Shown here: positions 2,665 through 11,380 of the stretch, one piece after another
How the letters are laid out: every line of letters begins with the position of its first letter
Position numbering within the stretch: position 1 is the first letter of the stretch
Source: a virus
Lineage: Duplodnaviria > Heunggongvirae > Uroviricota > Caudoviricetes
Reading direction: 5' to 3' (one strand)
IMG/VR virus record: IMGVR_UViG_3300015187_000032
Length of the DNA: 11,452 bases
Position numbers and translations under genes: made by a program
Notes under the pieces: model-generated
Told to the model about the DNA's origin: nothing
Seen by the model: the letters and a program-made list of their open reading frames with translations, nothing else
Databases searched by the model: none

Positions 2665-5257
2665 TTGCATATTCCTTAGCCCAGCGGGGCAGTGATAACG
2701 TCTTAATAGCTGGCCATTCATCGGTATTGAGGCAGTCAGCCAGGGTTCGCAGATTGCGGTGATATTCCAGCTGACCTGCCAGTTTTGCTTCTTCGCCCAT
2801 CATGAAAATTTCAACCGGATAACGTCCGCATTCAATAGTTGTGCTGGCAACCAGAAAAACGAAAGTTGGCTGCACTCCAAACTGTGCTTCATAACCGTCA
2901 CTGTAGAATGCATCCTGAACGTGATAGCGGTAGTCGTAATAAGCGGTTTTGAATCGTTGAATATCCGCCGTAGTTTTCACGTCCATGATCCAGTGAAATT
3001 CAGGGATAATTTTGTCCGGACGGCACCGACACAAAATTCCTGTTTCAGGATCTTCCCAGTAAATTGATGATTCAGCGTGTCCGGCGCTTTCAATAAGCCA
3101 TTGCCCCAGCGGCAAAGCCATAACGCTTTGATACATGAGTTCAATTTTCCGGCCTTCTTCCGCAGTGATAACCGTTTTTCCTGTGCTTGCGCATTCCATC
3201 AGAAACGCTTTCTCTTCTTCTTTTCCGGCGTTTGTACGGCGATTAAATTCAGGTGCTACGATAAAGCGGTTACTGAATTCTTCCGGTTCAAGTACCCGGC
3301 AGTGGAAAGCGGTTCCTAAATCGAGCGTTTTTGTCTTTGTGGTGTCCACGGGGGCATTTTTACGCCACAAATACAGTGCCGGAGTATCAGCAATGTCATC
3401 GAGCTGAGACTTACTGACACCGGGACCCGCGTGGTAATTCTCATTCGAAATTCCGTAATAAATACCTGGCTCTATGTCTTCTACGATTACGGGATCTGCG
3501 ACTTCGCCAGTTTCATCACTGCAATCGCGATGCGGATCGCTGCCAGCATTCTCATTGTGCGGATGTTCAGCGCCTTCCATTTCCTCCGGATCATTTTCCT
3601 TAGCTTCAACCTGACTCTCTTCATCGAATGTTTCCTGGTATGTTGCCTCGCCCATCACCGCACCACAGTCAGGGCAGTTATCCCCGCCAGTCTGGCCGCA
3701 GGCATTGCAGGCTATTTCCGGTTCCTGTTGCACTACTGGCTCAGGTTGATTCATATCCGGGCTGGTTTTTTCCGTTTCTGGCTGGTTCTGGTGCACAGAA
3801 TCGCGAGTCTGGATCCCCTTTACCCATTTCGGATCGTTCGGGTCGCTAATTCCGTCAACAAATTCACCACGTGATGCAGCAAGCAATTTATCGGCATCGA
3901 CAGGATTTTTTGATGGAATGTTTTTCCGGGCTTCATGGAGTTCTGCCCGCAGTTTCTGATATTTCGCATCAACAGAATTTACCTGTGACTGAGCATCCAA
4001 CGGCTGCGTGTCCTGATGATGTTCAGTTGCGTCCGGTTCCATTGTTTCAGCCTCTCCCTGTTCAACTGCCGTTGTTCCAGATGGTTGCGGTTTTTCTTCA
4101 TCATCCTGTTTTCCTTCTTCTGTTACTCGCTGCGGCATCGGGGCAGAGGAGCGACCGCAGGCAATATCCACGATTTCCGGATCAGGGTTTGCATGATCGG
4201 TTTCAGTCAGTACTTTGTTCAGATATTCAGTGACGTGCGCGGGGATGACCTCGATCCCAATTGGTGCTTCTTTTACGGACGCAACCACGATGGCGCGGGA
4301 ATAATCCAGCCCGCCAGGCATGGTGATGAATTTGTCGCGGAAAACAGAAAAGGGCGGTTTATTTTCAGCGATAATTTCCTCAATGCGTTTAGCGTGTGCC
4401 GGATGAAGGTTATAGATGTCTAGATCCATTGAACGGGCCAGTACGCCAGTGGCTACGTCGCGCGCCAGTGACGTCAGATCGTGTACGAAACCTTCGCCGC
4501 GATCGGTGAGGTTTCCGCCGCCAGCATTAGCACCGGAAGCCGTGCGAGTGATGTGTGAAACACGATTACCCTTCATCCACTCTTTTGTCAGCAGTCCTCG
4601 ATCGGTGTAGTCAGCGTTCAGGTATGCTTCGAAAAAAGCAGTTATCAGTCCCAGGTTTGAATTACCAGGATTAGGGAAAACTTTGTCAGTGTCACGAACC
4701 AGTTTGTGGAGATCGCGAATTTCCAGCGGGTCGAGCAGGCTGGTTTTGTGGGAAACAGCCAGGGCAGTAACAGCCGGTAGTTCTTCAGCCCGAGCAATGT
4801 GTAATGCCTGGAGTCCGTCGCGTGAAACGTGCGTTACCGGTTTTTCGCTGCCGTGTTGAGCAAGCCAGCGAATGGGCAGTTCCTGGCCAGAAATTGGGAG
4901 TAGCATATTCTCCTCAATCTCAGTCATGTCTTCGCCGTTGACGTTGGTATTGCCTTGATAGTGAGCGTTGTCTGGTGCTGCTCCCGGTTTTAGTTCCCAT
5001 GTCATGGAGTCTTTGCTGAGTTGATAGCGTTCACTCCAGGTAAAATCGATCTCACCTTCAGCGGGCAGGTCATTAACGACAGGAAAATTCGTGGCAACAG
5101 CTTTAAAATAGCTGCTCAGTTTTTTACCTGACTTAACGATCAGGTAGTCCAGAGTGGCACAGGTCGATTCAAAATCGTCGCTTGCCCACAGGACGACGTC
5201 AGGTTCACCGGATGATTTTTTCGCTTTCCGTAACAGGAAGAGTGGTTTTGTGCTCAT
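2657..5257 (-). CDS. recE: RecE exonuclease VIII (866 aa), 5'-3' dsDNA exonuclease partner of RecT
   Basis: Single 866-aa ORF on the minus strand. C-terminal part (...[32 protein letters not shown]...DVKTT...) is the nuclease domain. Middle is acidic and low-complexity, with a Cys4 motif (CNAC-x10-CPDC). Length and sequence fit Rac RecE. Confidence 0.9.
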
Positions 5258-8544: not shown

Positions 8545-8967
8545 ATGAAAATCAAGCATGAGCACATCGAATCAGTGTTGTTTGCCCTGGCAGCCGAAAA
8601 AGGGCAGGCATGGGTAGCCAATGCAATTACTGAAGAATATCTGCGCCAGGGGGGCGGCGAATTGCCCCTAGTTCCAGGCAAGGACTGGAACAATCAGCAG
8701 AATATCTATCACCGTTGGTTGAAAGGTGAAACGAAAACGCAAAGAGAAAAAATTCAGAAGCTGATCCCAGCAATTCTGGCAATCCTTCCGCGCGAGCTGC
8801 GTCACCGACTCTGCATCTTCGATACCCTGGAACGCCGTGCATTACTGGCGGCGCAGGAAGCGTTAAGTACGGCAATTGATGCGCATGATGATGCAGTCCA
8901 GGCCGTTTACCGGAAAGCGCATTTCAGCGGCGGCGGGTCTTCCGACGATTCTGTCATTGTTCATTAA
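8545..8967 (+). CDS. ydaT: YdaT: CII-like / toxin-like early protein (140 aa)
   Basis: Track ORF 8545..8967; SD AAGAGG upstream of the ATG. Recognised as Rac YdaT. Confidence 0.85.
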   Translation: MKIKHEHIESVLFALAAEKGQAWVANAITEEYLRQGGGELPLVPGKDWNNQQNIYHRWLKGETKTQREKIQKLIPAILAILPRELRHRLCIFDTLERRALLAAQEALSTAIDAHDDAVQAVYRKAHFSGGGSSDDSVIVH

Positions 8968-8979
8968 GCAAAAGTTTCC

Positions 8980-9837
8980 ATGCTGTTTGTGCTTATTCTA
9001 AGCAACCGGGCAGCATCATACGGGGCAATTATGGCCGCATTACCATACATGCAACTGTACATAGCTGATTACCTGGCTGACACCATGCATTTGTCAGCAG
9101 AGGAGCATGGTGCGTATTTGTTGCTGATGTTCAATTACTGGCAAACAGGAAAGCCAATACCTAAAAACAGGCTGGCAAAAATTGCCCGTCTGACTAACGA
9201 GCGATGGGCTGGTGTTGAACCATCCTTGCGGGAGTTTTTTTGCGATAACGGCGAGGAATGGGTGCATCTTCGGATTGAGGAAGATCTGGCATCAGTCAGG
9301 GAAAAATTAACCAAAAAATCAGCCGCAGGAAAAGCATCTGTTCAGGCTAGAAGAAGCAGAAAGGAAGCAGATGTTCAAACAAAACAAGAGAGAAATTTAA
9401 CAGGTGTTCAAACAGATGTTGAAGTGGTGTTTGAACATGATGTCAACACAAAGGCAACTAATAAAGATACAGATAAAGATCTAAAAACAGATCCCCCCCT
9501 AAATCCCCCCCGGGGGAATCGAGGTGTCAAAAAGTTTGACCCTCTGGATATTGCTTTGCCGAACTGGATTTCTGTCTCGCTTTGGCGTGAGTGGGTTGAA
9601 TTTCGCCAGGCATTGCGTAAACCGATTCGAACGGAGCAGGGCGCTAACGGGGCGATACGGGAGCTGGAAAAATTCCGCCAGCAGGGTTTTTCACCTGAGC
9701 AGGTGATTCGACACAGCATCGCCAACGAATACAAGGGCTTGTTCGCGCCGAAAGGTGTTCGACCTGAGACGTTACTCCGACAGGTTAACACCGTTTCGTT
9801 ACCGGACAGTGCGATCCCGCCAGGCTTCAGGGGGTAA
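8980..9837 (+). CDS. ydaU: YdaU: replication-initiator-like protein (DUF1376-type; lambda O position)
   Basis: Track ORF 8980..9837 (285 aa). No SD before the ATG at 8980. An alternative start at 9031 (MAALPYMQLYIADYLADT...) follows a GGGG motif and may be the true start. Central linker region contains iteron-like repeats. Confidence 0.75.
   Translation: MLFVLILSNRAASYGAIMAALPYMQLYIADYLADTMHLSAEEHGAYLLLMFNYWQTGKPIPKNRLAKIARLTNERWAGVEPSLREFFCDNGEEWVHLRIEEDLASVREKLTKKSAAGKASVQARRSRKEADVQTKQERNLTGVQTDVEVVFEHDVNTKATNKDTDKDLKTDPPLNPPRGNRGVKKFDPLDIALPNWISVSLWREWVEFRQALRKPIRTEQGANGAIRELEKFRQQGFSPEQVIRHSIANEYKGLFAPKGVRPETLLRQVNTVSLPDSAIPPGFRG
9368..9520. repeat. Candidate replication-origin repeats inside ydaU: three 10-bp TGTTCAAACA copies followed by an A-rich tract and a C7/C7/G5 block
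   Basis: TGTTCAAACA at 9372-9381 and 9405-9414 (direct) and 9428-9437 (inverted). A-rich stretch 9451-9491. CCCCCCC at 9493-9499 and 9505-9511, then GGGGG at 9512-9516. Layout resembles the lambda ori inside the O gene. Confidence 0.3.
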
Positions 9838-9843
9838 CTGACC

Positions 9844-10590
9844 ATGAAAAATATTGCGACAGGCGGCGTTCTTGAACGTATCCGCAGACTGGCTCCGTCA
9901 CATGTAACCGCGCCATTCAAGACGGTGGCGGAGTGGCGTGAGTGGCAACTTTCCGAAGGCCAGAAACGTTGTGAGGAGATCAACCGTCAGAATCGTCAGT
10001 TGCGGGTGGAAAAAATTCTGAATCGCTCTGGCATCCAGCCATTGCACCGCAAATGCTCGTTTTCGAATTACCAGGTGCAGAACGACGGTCAGCGATACGC
10101 GTTGAGCCAGGCGAAATTCATCGCCGATGAACTGATGGTCGGGTGTACAAATTTTGCGTTCAGTGGAAAACCTGGTACCGGAAAAAACCATCTGGCGGCG
10201 GCTATCGGGAATCGCCTGCTGAAAGACGGTCAGACAGTGATTGTGGTTACCGTGGCTGATGTTATGAGCGCCCTGCACGCCAGCTATGACGACGGGCAGT
10301 CAGGCGAAAAATTTTTGCGGGAACTGTGCGAAGTTGATCTGCTGGTTCTTGATGAAATTGGTATTCAGCGCGAGACGAAAAACGAGCAGGTGGTACTGCA
10401 CCAGATTGTTGATCGCCGGACAGCGTCGATGCGCGGCGTGGGAATGCTGACAAACCTGAACTATGAGGCCATGAAAACATTGCTCGGCGCGCGGATTATG
10501 GATCGCATGACCATGAACGGCGGACGCTGGGTGAATTTTAACTGGGAGAGCTGGCGTCCGAATGTCGTCCAGCCAGGAATTGCGAAGTAA
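9844..10590 (+). CDS. ydaV: YdaV: DnaC-like AAA+ helicase loader (248 aa)
   Basis: Track ORF 9844..10590. Walker [16 protein letters not shown] and Walker [10 protein letters not shown] are present. IstB/DnaC-like protein at the lambda P position. Confidence 0.85.
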
Positions 10591-10612
10591 TTTTTACCGG
10601 GAGAAAAATTTA

Positions 10613-11380
10613 ATGGAGACTGTTTTTGACGCACTGAAAGCAATGGGAATAGCCACATCCATAGAACTTGCTGCGCGACTTGATATCAGTCGTGAAGAAG
10701 TGCTGAACGAACTATGGGAACTGAAAAAGGCTGGTTTTGTTGATAAAAGCGCGTACACCTGGCGTGTGGCTGATAACAACGTTCAGCAGGAACAGCCAGC
10801 GCAGGCAGAACTGCCGGAAGAAACCACCACAGCAACAGTAGCGAAAATCTCAGAGTGCGATTTAACCGCGACGATTGAACAACGCGGACCACAAACGGCT
10901 GATGAGCTGGCTACATTGTTTGGTACCACATCACGCAAAGTGGCTTCAACGCTGGCAATGGCAATCAGCAAAGGTCGTCTGATTCGCGTAAATCAGGGCG
11001 GTAAATTTCGTTACTGCATACCGGGCGATAATTTACCAGCAGAGCCGAAAGCAGCATCGGTAGCGGAAACTGATGGTAAGGCCTTTCCTCAGACCGCAGG
11101 TGTCGCGTTACCAGTACAGGAGGCTGCAACACAGGAAGAAATTAAAACAGATACTATGGGGGACATTGTGCAGTCACTACCATCGTTCACTGAAACGCGA
11201 GCCAATGACCTGATTTTACCATCGCTGCATATGGCAAACCGCGAACTGCGCCGGGCGAAAAGTCATGTCCAGAAGTGGGAGCGAGTCTGCGCCGCGCTGC
11301 GTGAGCTGAACAAGCACCAGGATATTGTTCGACAGATTACGGATTCTTTTCCGAGGCAACACGGCGGAAAGAATCCGTAA
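10613..11380 (+). CDS. ydaW: YdaW-like protein with two tandem winged-helix-like segments (255 aa from this start)
   Basis: Track ORF 10562..11380 trimmed to ATG 10613 ([12 protein letters not shown]...), with GGGAGA 8 nt upstream. The longer start overlaps ydaV by 29 nt. Two similar HTH-like segments: [31 protein letters not shown] and [31 protein letters not shown]. The 3' end lies inside a large palindrome. Symbol assigned by position in the Rac map. Confidence 0.6.

What the first reader, a model, noticed from the sequence alone, without database searches (positions are those of the whole stretch)
9368..9520. Iteron-like repeats plus A-rich tract inside ydaU: candidate replication origin
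Two direct copies and one inverted copy of TGTTCAAACA lie within 66 bp in the inter-domain linker coding region of the O-like gene. They are followed by a ~40-bp A-rich stretch and then a GC clamp. In lambda the origin sits at the equivalent place inside gene O. The repeated DNA uses identical codons for the repeated VQT peptide, which suggests constraint at the DNA level.
Basis: partly seen in the sequence, partly recalled or inferred. Interest (0 to 1): 0.45.

Follow-up and report, generated by a model that had tools for sequence, protein, structure and literature searches.

The report
Replication origin inside Rac prophage ydaU
The repeats and A-rich tract in the middle of the Rac prophage gene ydaU look like a lambda-style replication origin lying inside its own initiator gene, and the same layout recurs in related prophages from many bacterial groups, so this is a well-supported but unsurprising example of a known design.

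Summary
TGTTCAAACA occurs exactly at 9372-9381 (+), 9405-9414 (+) and 9428-9437 (-). No such cluster appeared in 300 dinucleotide shuffles of the window or in 5000 synonymous recodings of ydaU.

Two weaker sites (9417, 9441) complete a phased array with 11-12 bp spacing. It is followed by the least stable 40 bp of the rightward operon (9455-9494).

- Lambda's annotated iterons lie at offset 348-432 in gene O; Rac's lie at 341-419 from the conserved start.
- In E. coli, the N-domain, repeats and A-tract move as one block. They are joined at about 9470-9488 to different C-domains, which track the helicase-loader type.
- A different N-domain type carries different repeats (GTTAC/GTAAC) at the same place.
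- About 40 loci from many genera carry CGTTCAACG-like sites at 11-bp spacing, then an A-rich tract that is (GATACA)n in about half of them. Synonymous positions in the central site are almost invariant.
- Rac reads the motif in another frame.

No experiment was run. The published Rac origin, oriJ, could not be placed at nucleotide level. The GC clamp is not a feature shared across the family.

Verdict: a new member of a known kind. Confidence about 0.8, interest about 0.4.

The parts
8980..9837 (+). ydaU, a two-domain O-like replication initiator gene that contains the element. The likely true start is 9031 (MAALPY).
   Evidence: ORF list and RefSeq annotation. Pfam DUF1376 at aa 22-104. PHROG 'primosomal protein' and 'replication initiation O-like'. 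All homologues start at MAALPY.
9031..9375 (+). Coding region of the N-terminal DUF1376 domain. It is predicted to be a winged-helix fold and is the inferred iteron-binding domain.
9339..9348 (+). Weak upstream site TGTTCAGGCT, 33 bp before site 1.
   Evidence: Repeat family D1. It varies between Rac, K-12 and O55:H7.
9372..9381 (+). Site 1, TGTTCAAACA. An accessory copy lying 33 bp, or three helical turns, upstream of the core array.
   Evidence: It is invariant in K-12 and O55:H7 but degraded in phage Rac-SA53.
9405..9414 (+). Site 2, TGTTCAAACA. It corresponds to the family-wide first full site, CGTTCAACG.
9417..9426 (+). Site 3, TGTTGAAGTG, a degenerate site.
   Evidence: It is changed in O55:H7 and Rac-SA53.
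9428..9437 (-). Site 4, TGTTCAAACA on the minus strand (TGTTTGAACA on the plus strand).
   Evidence: It is invariant in Rac, Rac-SA53, O55:H7 and Citrobacter braakii.
9441..9450 (+). Site 5, TGTCAACACA, a degenerate half-site.
   Evidence: Sequence. The family alignment shows CAACG or CAACA at this phase.
9448..9490 (+). A-rich, purine-rich tract and candidate DNA unwinding element. It holds two GATC sites (9478-9481 and 9490-9493).
   Evidence: it is the least stable 40-bp stretch of the operon and matches the composition of the lambda ori A-rich tract. It is the homologue of the (GATACA)n or AATAAAGAT... tracts in about 40 loci.
9470..9488 (.). Mosaic junction zone between the module 'N-domain + repeats + A-tract' and the C-terminal module.
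   Evidence: Alignments A1 and A4. Match end-points fall at query 440, 444, 494, 497 and 507.
9493..9516 (+). GC-rich block CCCCCCCTAAATCCCCCCCGGGGG, encoding PPLNPPRG. It is the first part of the C-terminal module and its role in the origin is unproven.
   Evidence: Shared with L003 and L004, which have another N-domain, and absent from O55:H7. GC-only palindromes are barely enriched across the family.
9517..9837 (+). C-terminal domain of YdaU, the inferred partner of the YdaV helicase loader.
   Evidence: It co-occurs with ydaV in L003 and L004, and is replaced by a DnaT-like domain where the next gene is lambda-P-like.
9844..10590 (+). ydaV, a DnaC-like helicase loader. It acts in trans and is not part of the cis element.
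   Evidence: Pfam IstB_IS21, NCBIfam hit to the DnaC model (below that model's own cut-off) and PHROG DnaC-like helicase loader.

Best explanation
Positions 9372-9490 are the cis-acting core of a lambda-type replication origin lying inside the gene of its own initiator. This is most likely the Rac origin known genetically as oriJ.

Proposed mechanism:
1. The N-terminal winged-helix (DUF1376) domain of YdaU binds the near-palindromic GTTCAAAC/GTTTGAAC sites. These sit on one face of the helix at 11-12 bp spacing, with one extra site three turns upstream.
2. The resulting nucleoprotein complex stresses and opens the adjacent A-rich tract (9448-9490).
3. The C-terminal domain of YdaU recruits the DnaC-like loader YdaV together with host DnaB.
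4. Rightward transcription from the RacR-controlled promoter runs through the site, as pR transcription does at lambda ori.

What is shown: the repeats, their phasing, the low duplex stability, constraint at the DNA level, and co-inheritance of the sites with the N-domain.

What is inferred: binding, unwinding, loader recruitment, and identity with oriJ.
For: 1. The repeats are not chance and are not a by-product of the protein sequence.

2. Position and polarity match lambda.
- Lambda's iterons lie at offset 348-432 of gene O. Rac's sites lie at 341-419 from the conserved start.
- In both, the sites are followed on the coding strand by an A-rich, purine-rich tract. Composition is 57-58% A and 26-28% GC.

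3. Module structure in E. coli.
- An O55:H7 prophage shares the N-domain, all three exact copies and the A-tract at about 96% identity up to roughly 9487. It then diverges completely to a DnaT-like C-domain followed by a lambda-P-like gene.
- L003 and L004 have the Rac C-module plus ydaV, but another N-domain type and other repeats at the same place: GTTAC/GTAAC five times, then a purine-rich tract.
- 863 genomes carry the N-plus-origin block, 809 carry the C block, and 714 carry both contiguously.

4. Family-wide conservation.
- In 57 loci, exact GTT[CG]AAC occurs at 4.5 per kb in the 220 nt after the N-domain, against 0.25 per kb elsewhere.
- Of adjacent spacings, 67% are 11-12 bp and 19% are 22-23 bp. 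The copies therefore fall in all three reading frames.
- An A-rich tract follows the array in most of these loci, and in about half of them it is a (GATACA)n run.

5. Synonymous sites.
- In 19 colinear loci (N-domain DNA identity 73% on average), the central site uses AAC in 19 of 19, CGT in 16 of 16 Arg codons, TCA in 18 of 18 Ser, ACG in 17 of 18 Thr, and GTT in 18 of 18 Val.
- By contrast, 26 invariant residues with four or more synonymous codons in the N-domain have a mean third-position information of 0.64 bit, and only 2 of 26 reach 1.7 bit or more.

6. Rac reads the motif as V-Q-T, whereas the Citrobacter and Pseudomonas relatives read it as R-S-T. The DNA motif survived a frame change.

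7. The N-domain model is a confident winged helix, and its closest low-rmsd match is a plasmid replication initiator.

8. No DnaA box lies nearby, and there are no other repeat clusters in ydaV.

9. Rac is reported to have an active origin, oriJ (PMC3945230).
Against: - There is no experimental evidence here for binding, unwinding or autonomous replication.
- The only nucleotide-level pointer to oriJ found in the literature is a primer pair said to 'frame oriJ'. It amplifies 10101-10255 inside ydaV, about 0.6 kb downstream.
- Recent papers call K-12 Rac replication-defective.
- Sites 3 and 5 are degenerate and vary between close relatives, and site 1 is lost in phage Rac-SA53.
- The conserved peptide N-x-R-S-T-x-V means some protein-level constraint cannot be excluded.
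- The A-tract is not the most AT-rich part of the whole window.
Confidence: 0.8

Rival explanations
1. The repeats are only a by-product of a repetitive, low-complexity linker peptide (xVQT and (DT)n). The AT-richness merely reflects K/N/D/T-rich coding, and there is no cis-acting DNA function.
For: - The region encodes a linker that is disordered in a low-confidence full-length model.
- The two direct copies are 33 bp apart and in the same frame.
- (GATACA)n is read as (DT)n in every intact gene; the one exception is a frameshifted copy.
- A peptide N-x-R-S-T-x-V is conserved.
Against: - 0 of 5000 synonymous recodings reproduce the repeats.
- The family period is 11 bp, so copies lie in all three frames.
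- Synonymous positions of the central site are nearly invariant, while those of the conserved N-domain are not.
- The same DNA motif is read in a different frame in Rac.
- The repeats change when the N-domain type changes but the linker position stays the same.
Confidence: 0.04
2. The sites are real YdaU (or other protein) binding sites, but they serve another purpose. Possibilities include autoregulation, a transcriptional roadblock within the operon, or a partition or packaging signal. The true oriJ would then lie elsewhere, for example nearer ydaV.
For: - The published 'oriJ' primers map inside ydaV.
- Constraint at the DNA level and co-inheritance with the N-domain prove only a cis-acting partner site, not origin firing.
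Against: - ydaV contains no repeats or unstable tract.
- The site array sits directly next to the least stable tract of the operon, in the same order and at the same gene position as lambda ori.
- The C-domain co-varies with the helicase-loader type, as in lambda O and P.
- No promoter-like site lies in 8900-9900.
Confidence: 0.1
3. The conserved DNA is mainly a recombination linker. On this view, short sequences shared at a module boundary are kept because they promote exchange of N- and C-terminal modules between prophages.
For: - Several independent junctions fall at 9470-9488, at the 3' end of the A-tract.
- AATAAAGAT...GATCTAAAAGA and (GATACA)n are shared by otherwise diverged genes.
- Lambda has recombination marks right after its A-rich tract.
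Against: - This does not explain the phased near-palindromic sites upstream, or why they co-vary with the N-domain type.
- Junction clustering is expected next to an origin anyway and is compatible with the main explanation.
Confidence: 0.05

Closest known systems
Bacteriophage lambda ori (four iterons plus an A/T-rich tract inside gene O, with the O and P proteins)
   Same: - The element lies in the middle of the initiator gene at nearly the same offset: 348-432 in O against 341-419 in YdaU.
- It has 4-5 near-palindromic sites, followed on the coding strand by an A-rich, purine-rich tract of about 43 bp with the same composition.
- The initiator has two domains. The N-domain module travels with the sites, and the C-domain module travels with the helicase loader.
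- Hybrid junctions fall just after the A-tract.
   Different: - The initiator N-domain is DUF1376, with no Pfam hit to a lambda O N-terminal family.
- The sites are 9-10 bp at 11-12 bp spacing, against 18 bp at 20-24 bp spacing in lambda.
- The loader here is DnaC-like (YdaV), not lambda P.
- There is no sequence similarity between the iterons.
oriJ, the genetically defined replication origin of the Rac prophage (Diaz and Pritchard, late 1970s; Potrykus et al., Plasmid 2000; the first cited from memory, the second from a reference list)
   Same: It is the same prophage, and the only origin-like structure found in its replication module.
   Different: - The nucleotide position of oriJ could not be read in any paper available here.
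- RefSeq NC_000913.3 has no oriJ feature.
- One paper's 'oriJ' amplicon lies in ydaV.
Iteron-type plasmid origins with winged-helix Rep initiators (for example the RepA_N initiator of staphylococcal multiresistance plasmids, PDB 4pta)
   Same: A winged-helix initiator domain, phased short repeats next to an AT-rich tract, and in the RepA_N family an origin inside the rep gene (the last point from general knowledge).

Membership tests
Lambdoid in-gene origin (lambda ori type) | The cis element lies inside the initiator gene, in the segment between the N- and C-terminal domains. | tested here: met
   The sites at 9372-9450 lie after DUF1376 (aa 22-104) and before the C-domain.
Lambdoid in-gene origin (lambda ori type) | Several repeated initiator-binding sites (iterons), each with internal dyad symmetry. 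| tested here: met
   There are three exact and two degenerate copies of a GTT..AAC near-palindrome. Related loci carry mostly 2-4 such copies.
Lambdoid in-gene origin (lambda ori type) | An A/T-rich, strand-asymmetric, easily melted tract immediately to the right of the iterons. | tested here: met
   Positions 9448-9490 are 58% A, and 9455-9494 is the least stable 40-bp stretch of the operon.
Lambdoid in-gene origin (lambda ori type) | The iterons co-vary with the N-terminal domain of the initiator, and the C-terminal domain co-varies with the helicase loader. | tested here: met
Lambdoid in-gene origin (lambda ori type) | The initiator protein binds the iterons. | not testable with these tools
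   Only indirect support: a winged-helix model and co-inheritance of sites with the N-domain.
Lambdoid in-gene origin (lambda ori type) | The fragment supports replication in cis when the initiator and loader are supplied. | not testable with these tools
The literature states that Rac has an active oriJ without giving a usable position.
Lambda O protein family (homology of the initiator) | The N-terminal domain is homologous to the lambda O N-terminal DNA-binding domain. | tested here: not met
   Pfam gives only DUF1376. There is no PDB sequence relative. Only the linker-to-C-terminal part (aa 112-259) hits the PHROG 'replication initiation O-like' family.
DnaA-dependent origin (oriC type) | DnaA boxes and 13-mer unwinding repeats. 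| tested here: not met
   There is no DnaA box within the replication module. The 13-mer-like matches are not above chance.

The most novel reading that the evidence does not exclude
The DUF1376 winged-helix domain, a phased array of CGTTCAACG-type sites and an A-rich tract that is often a (GATACA)n hexanucleotide run may together form a single portable origin cassette. It is conserved at the DNA level across contigs assigned to Gamma-, Beta- and Alphaproteobacteria, and is seen on contigs binned to Acidobacteria, Planctomycetes and Bacillales. That is far wider than the fast-diverging iterons of the classical lambdoid phages. The (GATACA)n run would then act as a tunable unwinding element or a host-factor site, with a copy number of 2 to at least 7. 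This would give DUF1376 a function and provide a sequence signature for finding phage origins in metagenomes.
Probability: 0.35. Interest if true: 0.6.

Novelty: new member of a known kind. Interest (0 to 1): 0.4.

Why it matters
This result would pin oriJ, an origin defined genetically more than 40 years ago, to a roughly 120-bp sequence.

It would also give a testable function to the uncharacterised DUF1376 domain, as an origin-binding winged helix of a phage initiator.

It would help explain why E. coli prophage replication modules recombine where they do.

Finally, it supplies a simple DNA signature, CGTTCAACG-type sites at 11-bp spacing followed in many loci by (GATACA)n, for locating origins in a widespread group of prophages.

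The design itself, an origin inside the initiator gene, is textbook, so the conceptual gain is small.

Tried and rejected
- **oriC-like 13-mers in the A-tract.** GATCTGTTTTTAG on the minus strand resembles oriC's GATCTCTTATTAG. However, the consensus with up to 2 mismatches gives 11 matches against 6.8 expected in the window, which is not significant.
- **DnaA boxes.** None lie near the element.
- **GC clamp as a conserved origin part.** GC-only palindromes occur after the A-tract in only 10 of 41 loci, at 5.0 against 2.9 per kb. The Rac block is part of the C-terminal module.
- **Frame comparison across loci as a stand-alone test.** It has limited value, because in-frame descent preserves frames. 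The within-gene 11-bp period and the Rac versus Citrobacter frame change were used instead.
- **Literature on the position of oriJ.** Seven searches and several look-ups found no nucleotide-level description. Potrykus et al. 2000 and a Wegrzyn review are not held.
- **Single-sequence AlphaFold of full-length YdaU.** The model was poor (pLDDT 50), so only the N-domain model is used.
- **Sequence search of the PDB with YdaU and with an N-domain profile.** It gave no meaningful hit apart from a weak DnaT-like C-terminus.
- **Antisense ORF 9408-9983.** It has no family match. No promoter-like site lies in 8900-9900.
- **First protein search.** It returned only near-identical E. coli sequences.

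Full report
**Context**

The window is a Rac-type prophage of E. coli. It is 100% identical over ydaU to strain W284 and 98.8% identical to K-12 derivatives. The gene order is recT, recE, racC, kilR, sieB, racR, ydaS, ydaT, ydaU, ydaV.

The finding lies inside ydaU (8980-9837, 285 aa as annotated). YdaU has a Pfam DUF1376 domain at residues 22-104 and no other Pfam hit. PHROGs call it 'primosomal protein', and the stretch from aa 112 to 259 (linker and C-terminal part) matches 'replication initiation O-like'. The next gene, ydaV, is a DnaC/IstB-like helicase loader.

**The observation**

TGTTCAAACA occurs exactly at 9372-9381 (+), 9405-9414 (+) and 9428-9437 (-).
- A cluster of three copies of any 10-mer, on either strand, within 70 bp was never reached in 300 dinucleotide-preserving shuffles of the window.
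- When the YdaU protein was held fixed and codons redrawn from local usage, 0 of 5000 recodings gave three copies.

The site is a near-palindrome (TGTT-CA-AACA), so 'direct' and 'inverted' copies differ only in the two central bases.

Two degenerate copies in the same phase lie at 9417-9426 (TGTTGAAGTG) and 9441-9450 (TGTCAACACA). A weak one lies at 9339-9348. Centre-to-centre distances are therefore 33, 11.5, 11.5 and 11.5 bp, which puts the sites on one face of the helix.

The tract 9448-9490 is 58% A, 28% GC and 72% purine on the coding strand. Positions 9455-9494 form the least stable 40-bp duplex of the whole ydaS-to-ydaW operon, at -43.3 kcal/mol against a mean of -55.6 (sd 3.9).

The GC-rich block CCCCCCCTAAATCCCCCCCGGGGG follows at 9493-9516. 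The K-12 copy is identical from 9349 to 9552.

**Comparison with lambda, using the annotated record**

In NC_001416, gene O starts at 38686 and the four annotated ori iterons lie at 39034-39118, an offset of 348-432. Rac's sites lie at offset 341-419 from the conserved start at 9031.

Lambda's iterons are followed on the coding strand by ACACAAAAGACACTATTACAAAAGAAAAAAGAAAAGATTATT. That tract is 57% A, 26% GC and 67% purine, nearly the same composition and polarity as the Rac tract. Lambda's record also marks recombination points just after its A-rich tract.

**Module structure within E. coli**

An O55:H7 prophage gene (L002) is about 96% identical to Rac ydaU through the N-domain, all three exact copies and the A-tract, up to roughly 9487. 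It then diverges completely. Its C-terminal part is a DnaT-like domain and the next gene is annotated 'replication protein P'.

Conversely, L003 and L004 share the Rac C-terminal module from CCCCCTAAATCCCCC onward, together with ydaV. Their N-terminal type is different (phrog_2509). At the same position they carry five GTTAC/GTAAC repeats followed by a purine-rich tract.

Across 5426 complete genomes:
- 863 carry the N-plus-repeat block.
- 809 carry the C block.
- 714 carry both contiguously.
- The ends of partial matches cluster at window 9470-9488.

This is the classical signature of an initiator and origin specificity pair: the N-domain goes with its sites, and the C-domain goes with its loader.

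**Family-wide comparison**

A scan of one genome per species with an N-domain profile gave 53 loci. Three Pseudomonas phages with N-domains 55-68% identical at the amino-acid level were also fetched.

Nearly all carry CGTTCAACG / CGTTGAACG-like sites directly after the N-domain, most often two to four per locus by a one-mismatch criterion and up to five. The array is followed at once by an A-rich tract, which is a (GATACA)n run in about half of the loci and AATAAAGAT..GATCTAAAAGA or a purine-rich (GAAGA)n-type run in others. These loci come from:
- Enterobacterales: Escherichia, Citrobacter, Enterobacter, Kluyvera, Serratia, Rahnella and Pantoea.
- Other Gammaproteobacteria: Pseudomonas, Azotobacter, Frateuria and a Methylococcaceae MAG.
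- Betaproteobacteria: Propionivibrio.
- Alphaproteobacteria: Aestuariivirga and Bosea.
- MAG contigs binned to Terracidiphilus and Bacillales. A Planctomycetaceae contig (L046) has the (GATACA)n run but a different repeat, GCGAACGCA.

The supporting numbers are:
- Exact GTT[CG]AAC occurs at 4.5 per kb in the 220 nt after the N-domain, against 0.25 per kb elsewhere in the loci.
- Adjacent-site spacing is 11-12 bp in 67% of cases and 22-23 bp in 19%.
- Copies within one gene therefore fall in all three reading frames, which a peptide repeat cannot produce.

In 19 colinear loci, whose N-domain DNA is on average 73% identical, 26 invariant residues with four or more synonymous codons use three or four codons each. 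Their mean third-position information is 0.64 bit, and only 2 of 26 reach 1.7 bit or more.

In the central site, by contrast, the codons are almost fixed:
- AAC in 19 of 19.
- CGT in 16 of 16 Arg codons.
- TCA in 18 of 18 Ser codons.
- ACG in 17 of 18 Thr codons.
- GTT in 18 of 18 Val codons.

Rac reads GTTCAA as V-Q, whereas the Citrobacter and Pseudomonas relatives read CGTTCAACG as R-S-T. The site further along (GTTTGAAC) is in the same frame in both. The DNA motif therefore survived a compensated frame change.

More distant DUF1376 genes (33-41% identity; Acinetobacter, Leptolyngbya and Azospirillum phages) have other repeats at the same place. Some still have ATAAAGATC-like tracts.

**The protein**

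An AlphaFold2 model of residues 18-132, built with a 72-sequence alignment, is confident (pLDDT 91.4). It has the winged-helix order a1-b-a2-a3-b-b followed by a long basic helix that ends where the repeats begin.

**Most likely mechanism**

1. YdaU binds the phased sites through its winged-helix N-domain.
2. The resulting complex opens the neighbouring A-rich tract.
3. The C-domain brings in YdaV with host DnaB.

The repeats, their phasing, the instability of the tract, the constraint at the DNA level and the co-inheritance are shown. Binding, opening and loading are inferred by analogy with lambda O and P.

The core is probably 9405-9490, for two reasons. First, that is the layout shared by the family. 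Second, the copy at 9372 is degraded in phage Rac-SA53 (GATATTCAAAAAA), while copies 2 and 4 are kept. Copy 4 is invariant even in Citrobacter braakii.

**What weakens the case**

- Nothing here measures replication.
- Rac is said to have an active origin, oriJ (PMC3945230). Other papers call K-12 Rac replication-defective.
- No paper available gives the position of oriJ, and RefSeq has no such feature.
- One paper's primers 'framing oriJ' amplify 10101-10255 inside ydaV. That stretch has no repeats or unstable tract, so it is probably just a nearby copy-number probe. This is an inference.
- The GC clamp is part of the C-terminal module and is not enriched across the family.
- Similarity of the A-tract to the oriC 13-mers is not above chance.
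- There are no DnaA boxes.

**Comparison with known systems**

The element works like lambda ori and meets every sequence-level criterion of that type. It is not a homologue of lambda's O N-domain or iterons.

It is best filed as a new member of a known kind, namely the in-gene origin of the YdaU/DUF1376 initiator group. The caveat is that an unread paper from 2000 may already describe it for Rac.

The broader point is that one site type and an A-rich tract, often (GATACA)n, are conserved with this domain across very distant hosts. No description of this was found in the searchable library; DUF1376 appears in six papers, which were not opened.

Noticed in passing
window 8980-9031: The annotated ydaU start (8980, MLFVLILSNRAASYGAI...) is probably too far upstream. 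Every homologue examined, including the O55:H7 prophage and the Pseudomonas phages, begins at MAALPY, which is window 9031.
   Followed up: partly
window 10101-10255 (ydaV): The primers published as 'framing oriJ' (PMC3945230, supplement) map here, inside the Walker-A region of ydaV and about 0.6 kb downstream of the repeat array. No repeats or unstable tract are found there.
   Followed up: yes
L011 and L012, about 2905 onward (E. coli ECMA0423, Shigella flexneri SFBU1023): ydaU is interrupted inside the repeat array by unrelated DNA beginning TGGATTTGCCCCTATATTTCC, which looks like an insertion-sequence end. Site 4 is also mutated there (GTGTTCGAACA).
   Followed up: no
L032-L035, L038, L059 (Pseudomonas, Kosakonia, Phytobacter, Leclercia), about 2790-3000: This is a variant initiator: the DUF1376 N-domain, then a T5orf172/GIY-YIG-like insert, then a DnaT domain. 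Inside the gene lies a different repeat set (CCGTAGTAGCTACG, CTACGGTAG). It may be another iteron type.
   Followed up: partly
proteins P0155, P0179, P0194, P0209, P0215, P0216, P0232, P0236: These are short proteins that combine HNH endonuclease domains (PF01844, PF14279) with DUF1376.
   Followed up: no
L067 1897-1915 (Leptolyngbya phage Lbo-JY16); L066 about 1910-1920 (Azospirillum phage Cd): ATAAAGATCAAAAGC or ATAAAGAAC follows the repeats even in very distant DUF1376 genes whose repeats differ. The same motif (AATAAAGAT, AAGATCAAAAGC) occurs in the enterobacterial and Pseudomonas loci. It may be a conserved core of the unwinding tract or a host-factor site.
   Followed up: partly
window 10562-11380: The ydaW-like gene (DUF1627, 272 aa) is intact here, whereas the K-12 copy is annotated as truncated. 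This prophage is therefore less decayed than K-12 Rac.
   Followed up: no
window 9478-9493: Two GATC (Dam) sites lie 12 bp apart at the 3' end of the A-rich tract, within AGATCTAAAAACAGATC. The enterobacterial relatives also have GATC sites here. Possible methylation or SeqA control was not examined.
   Followed up: no
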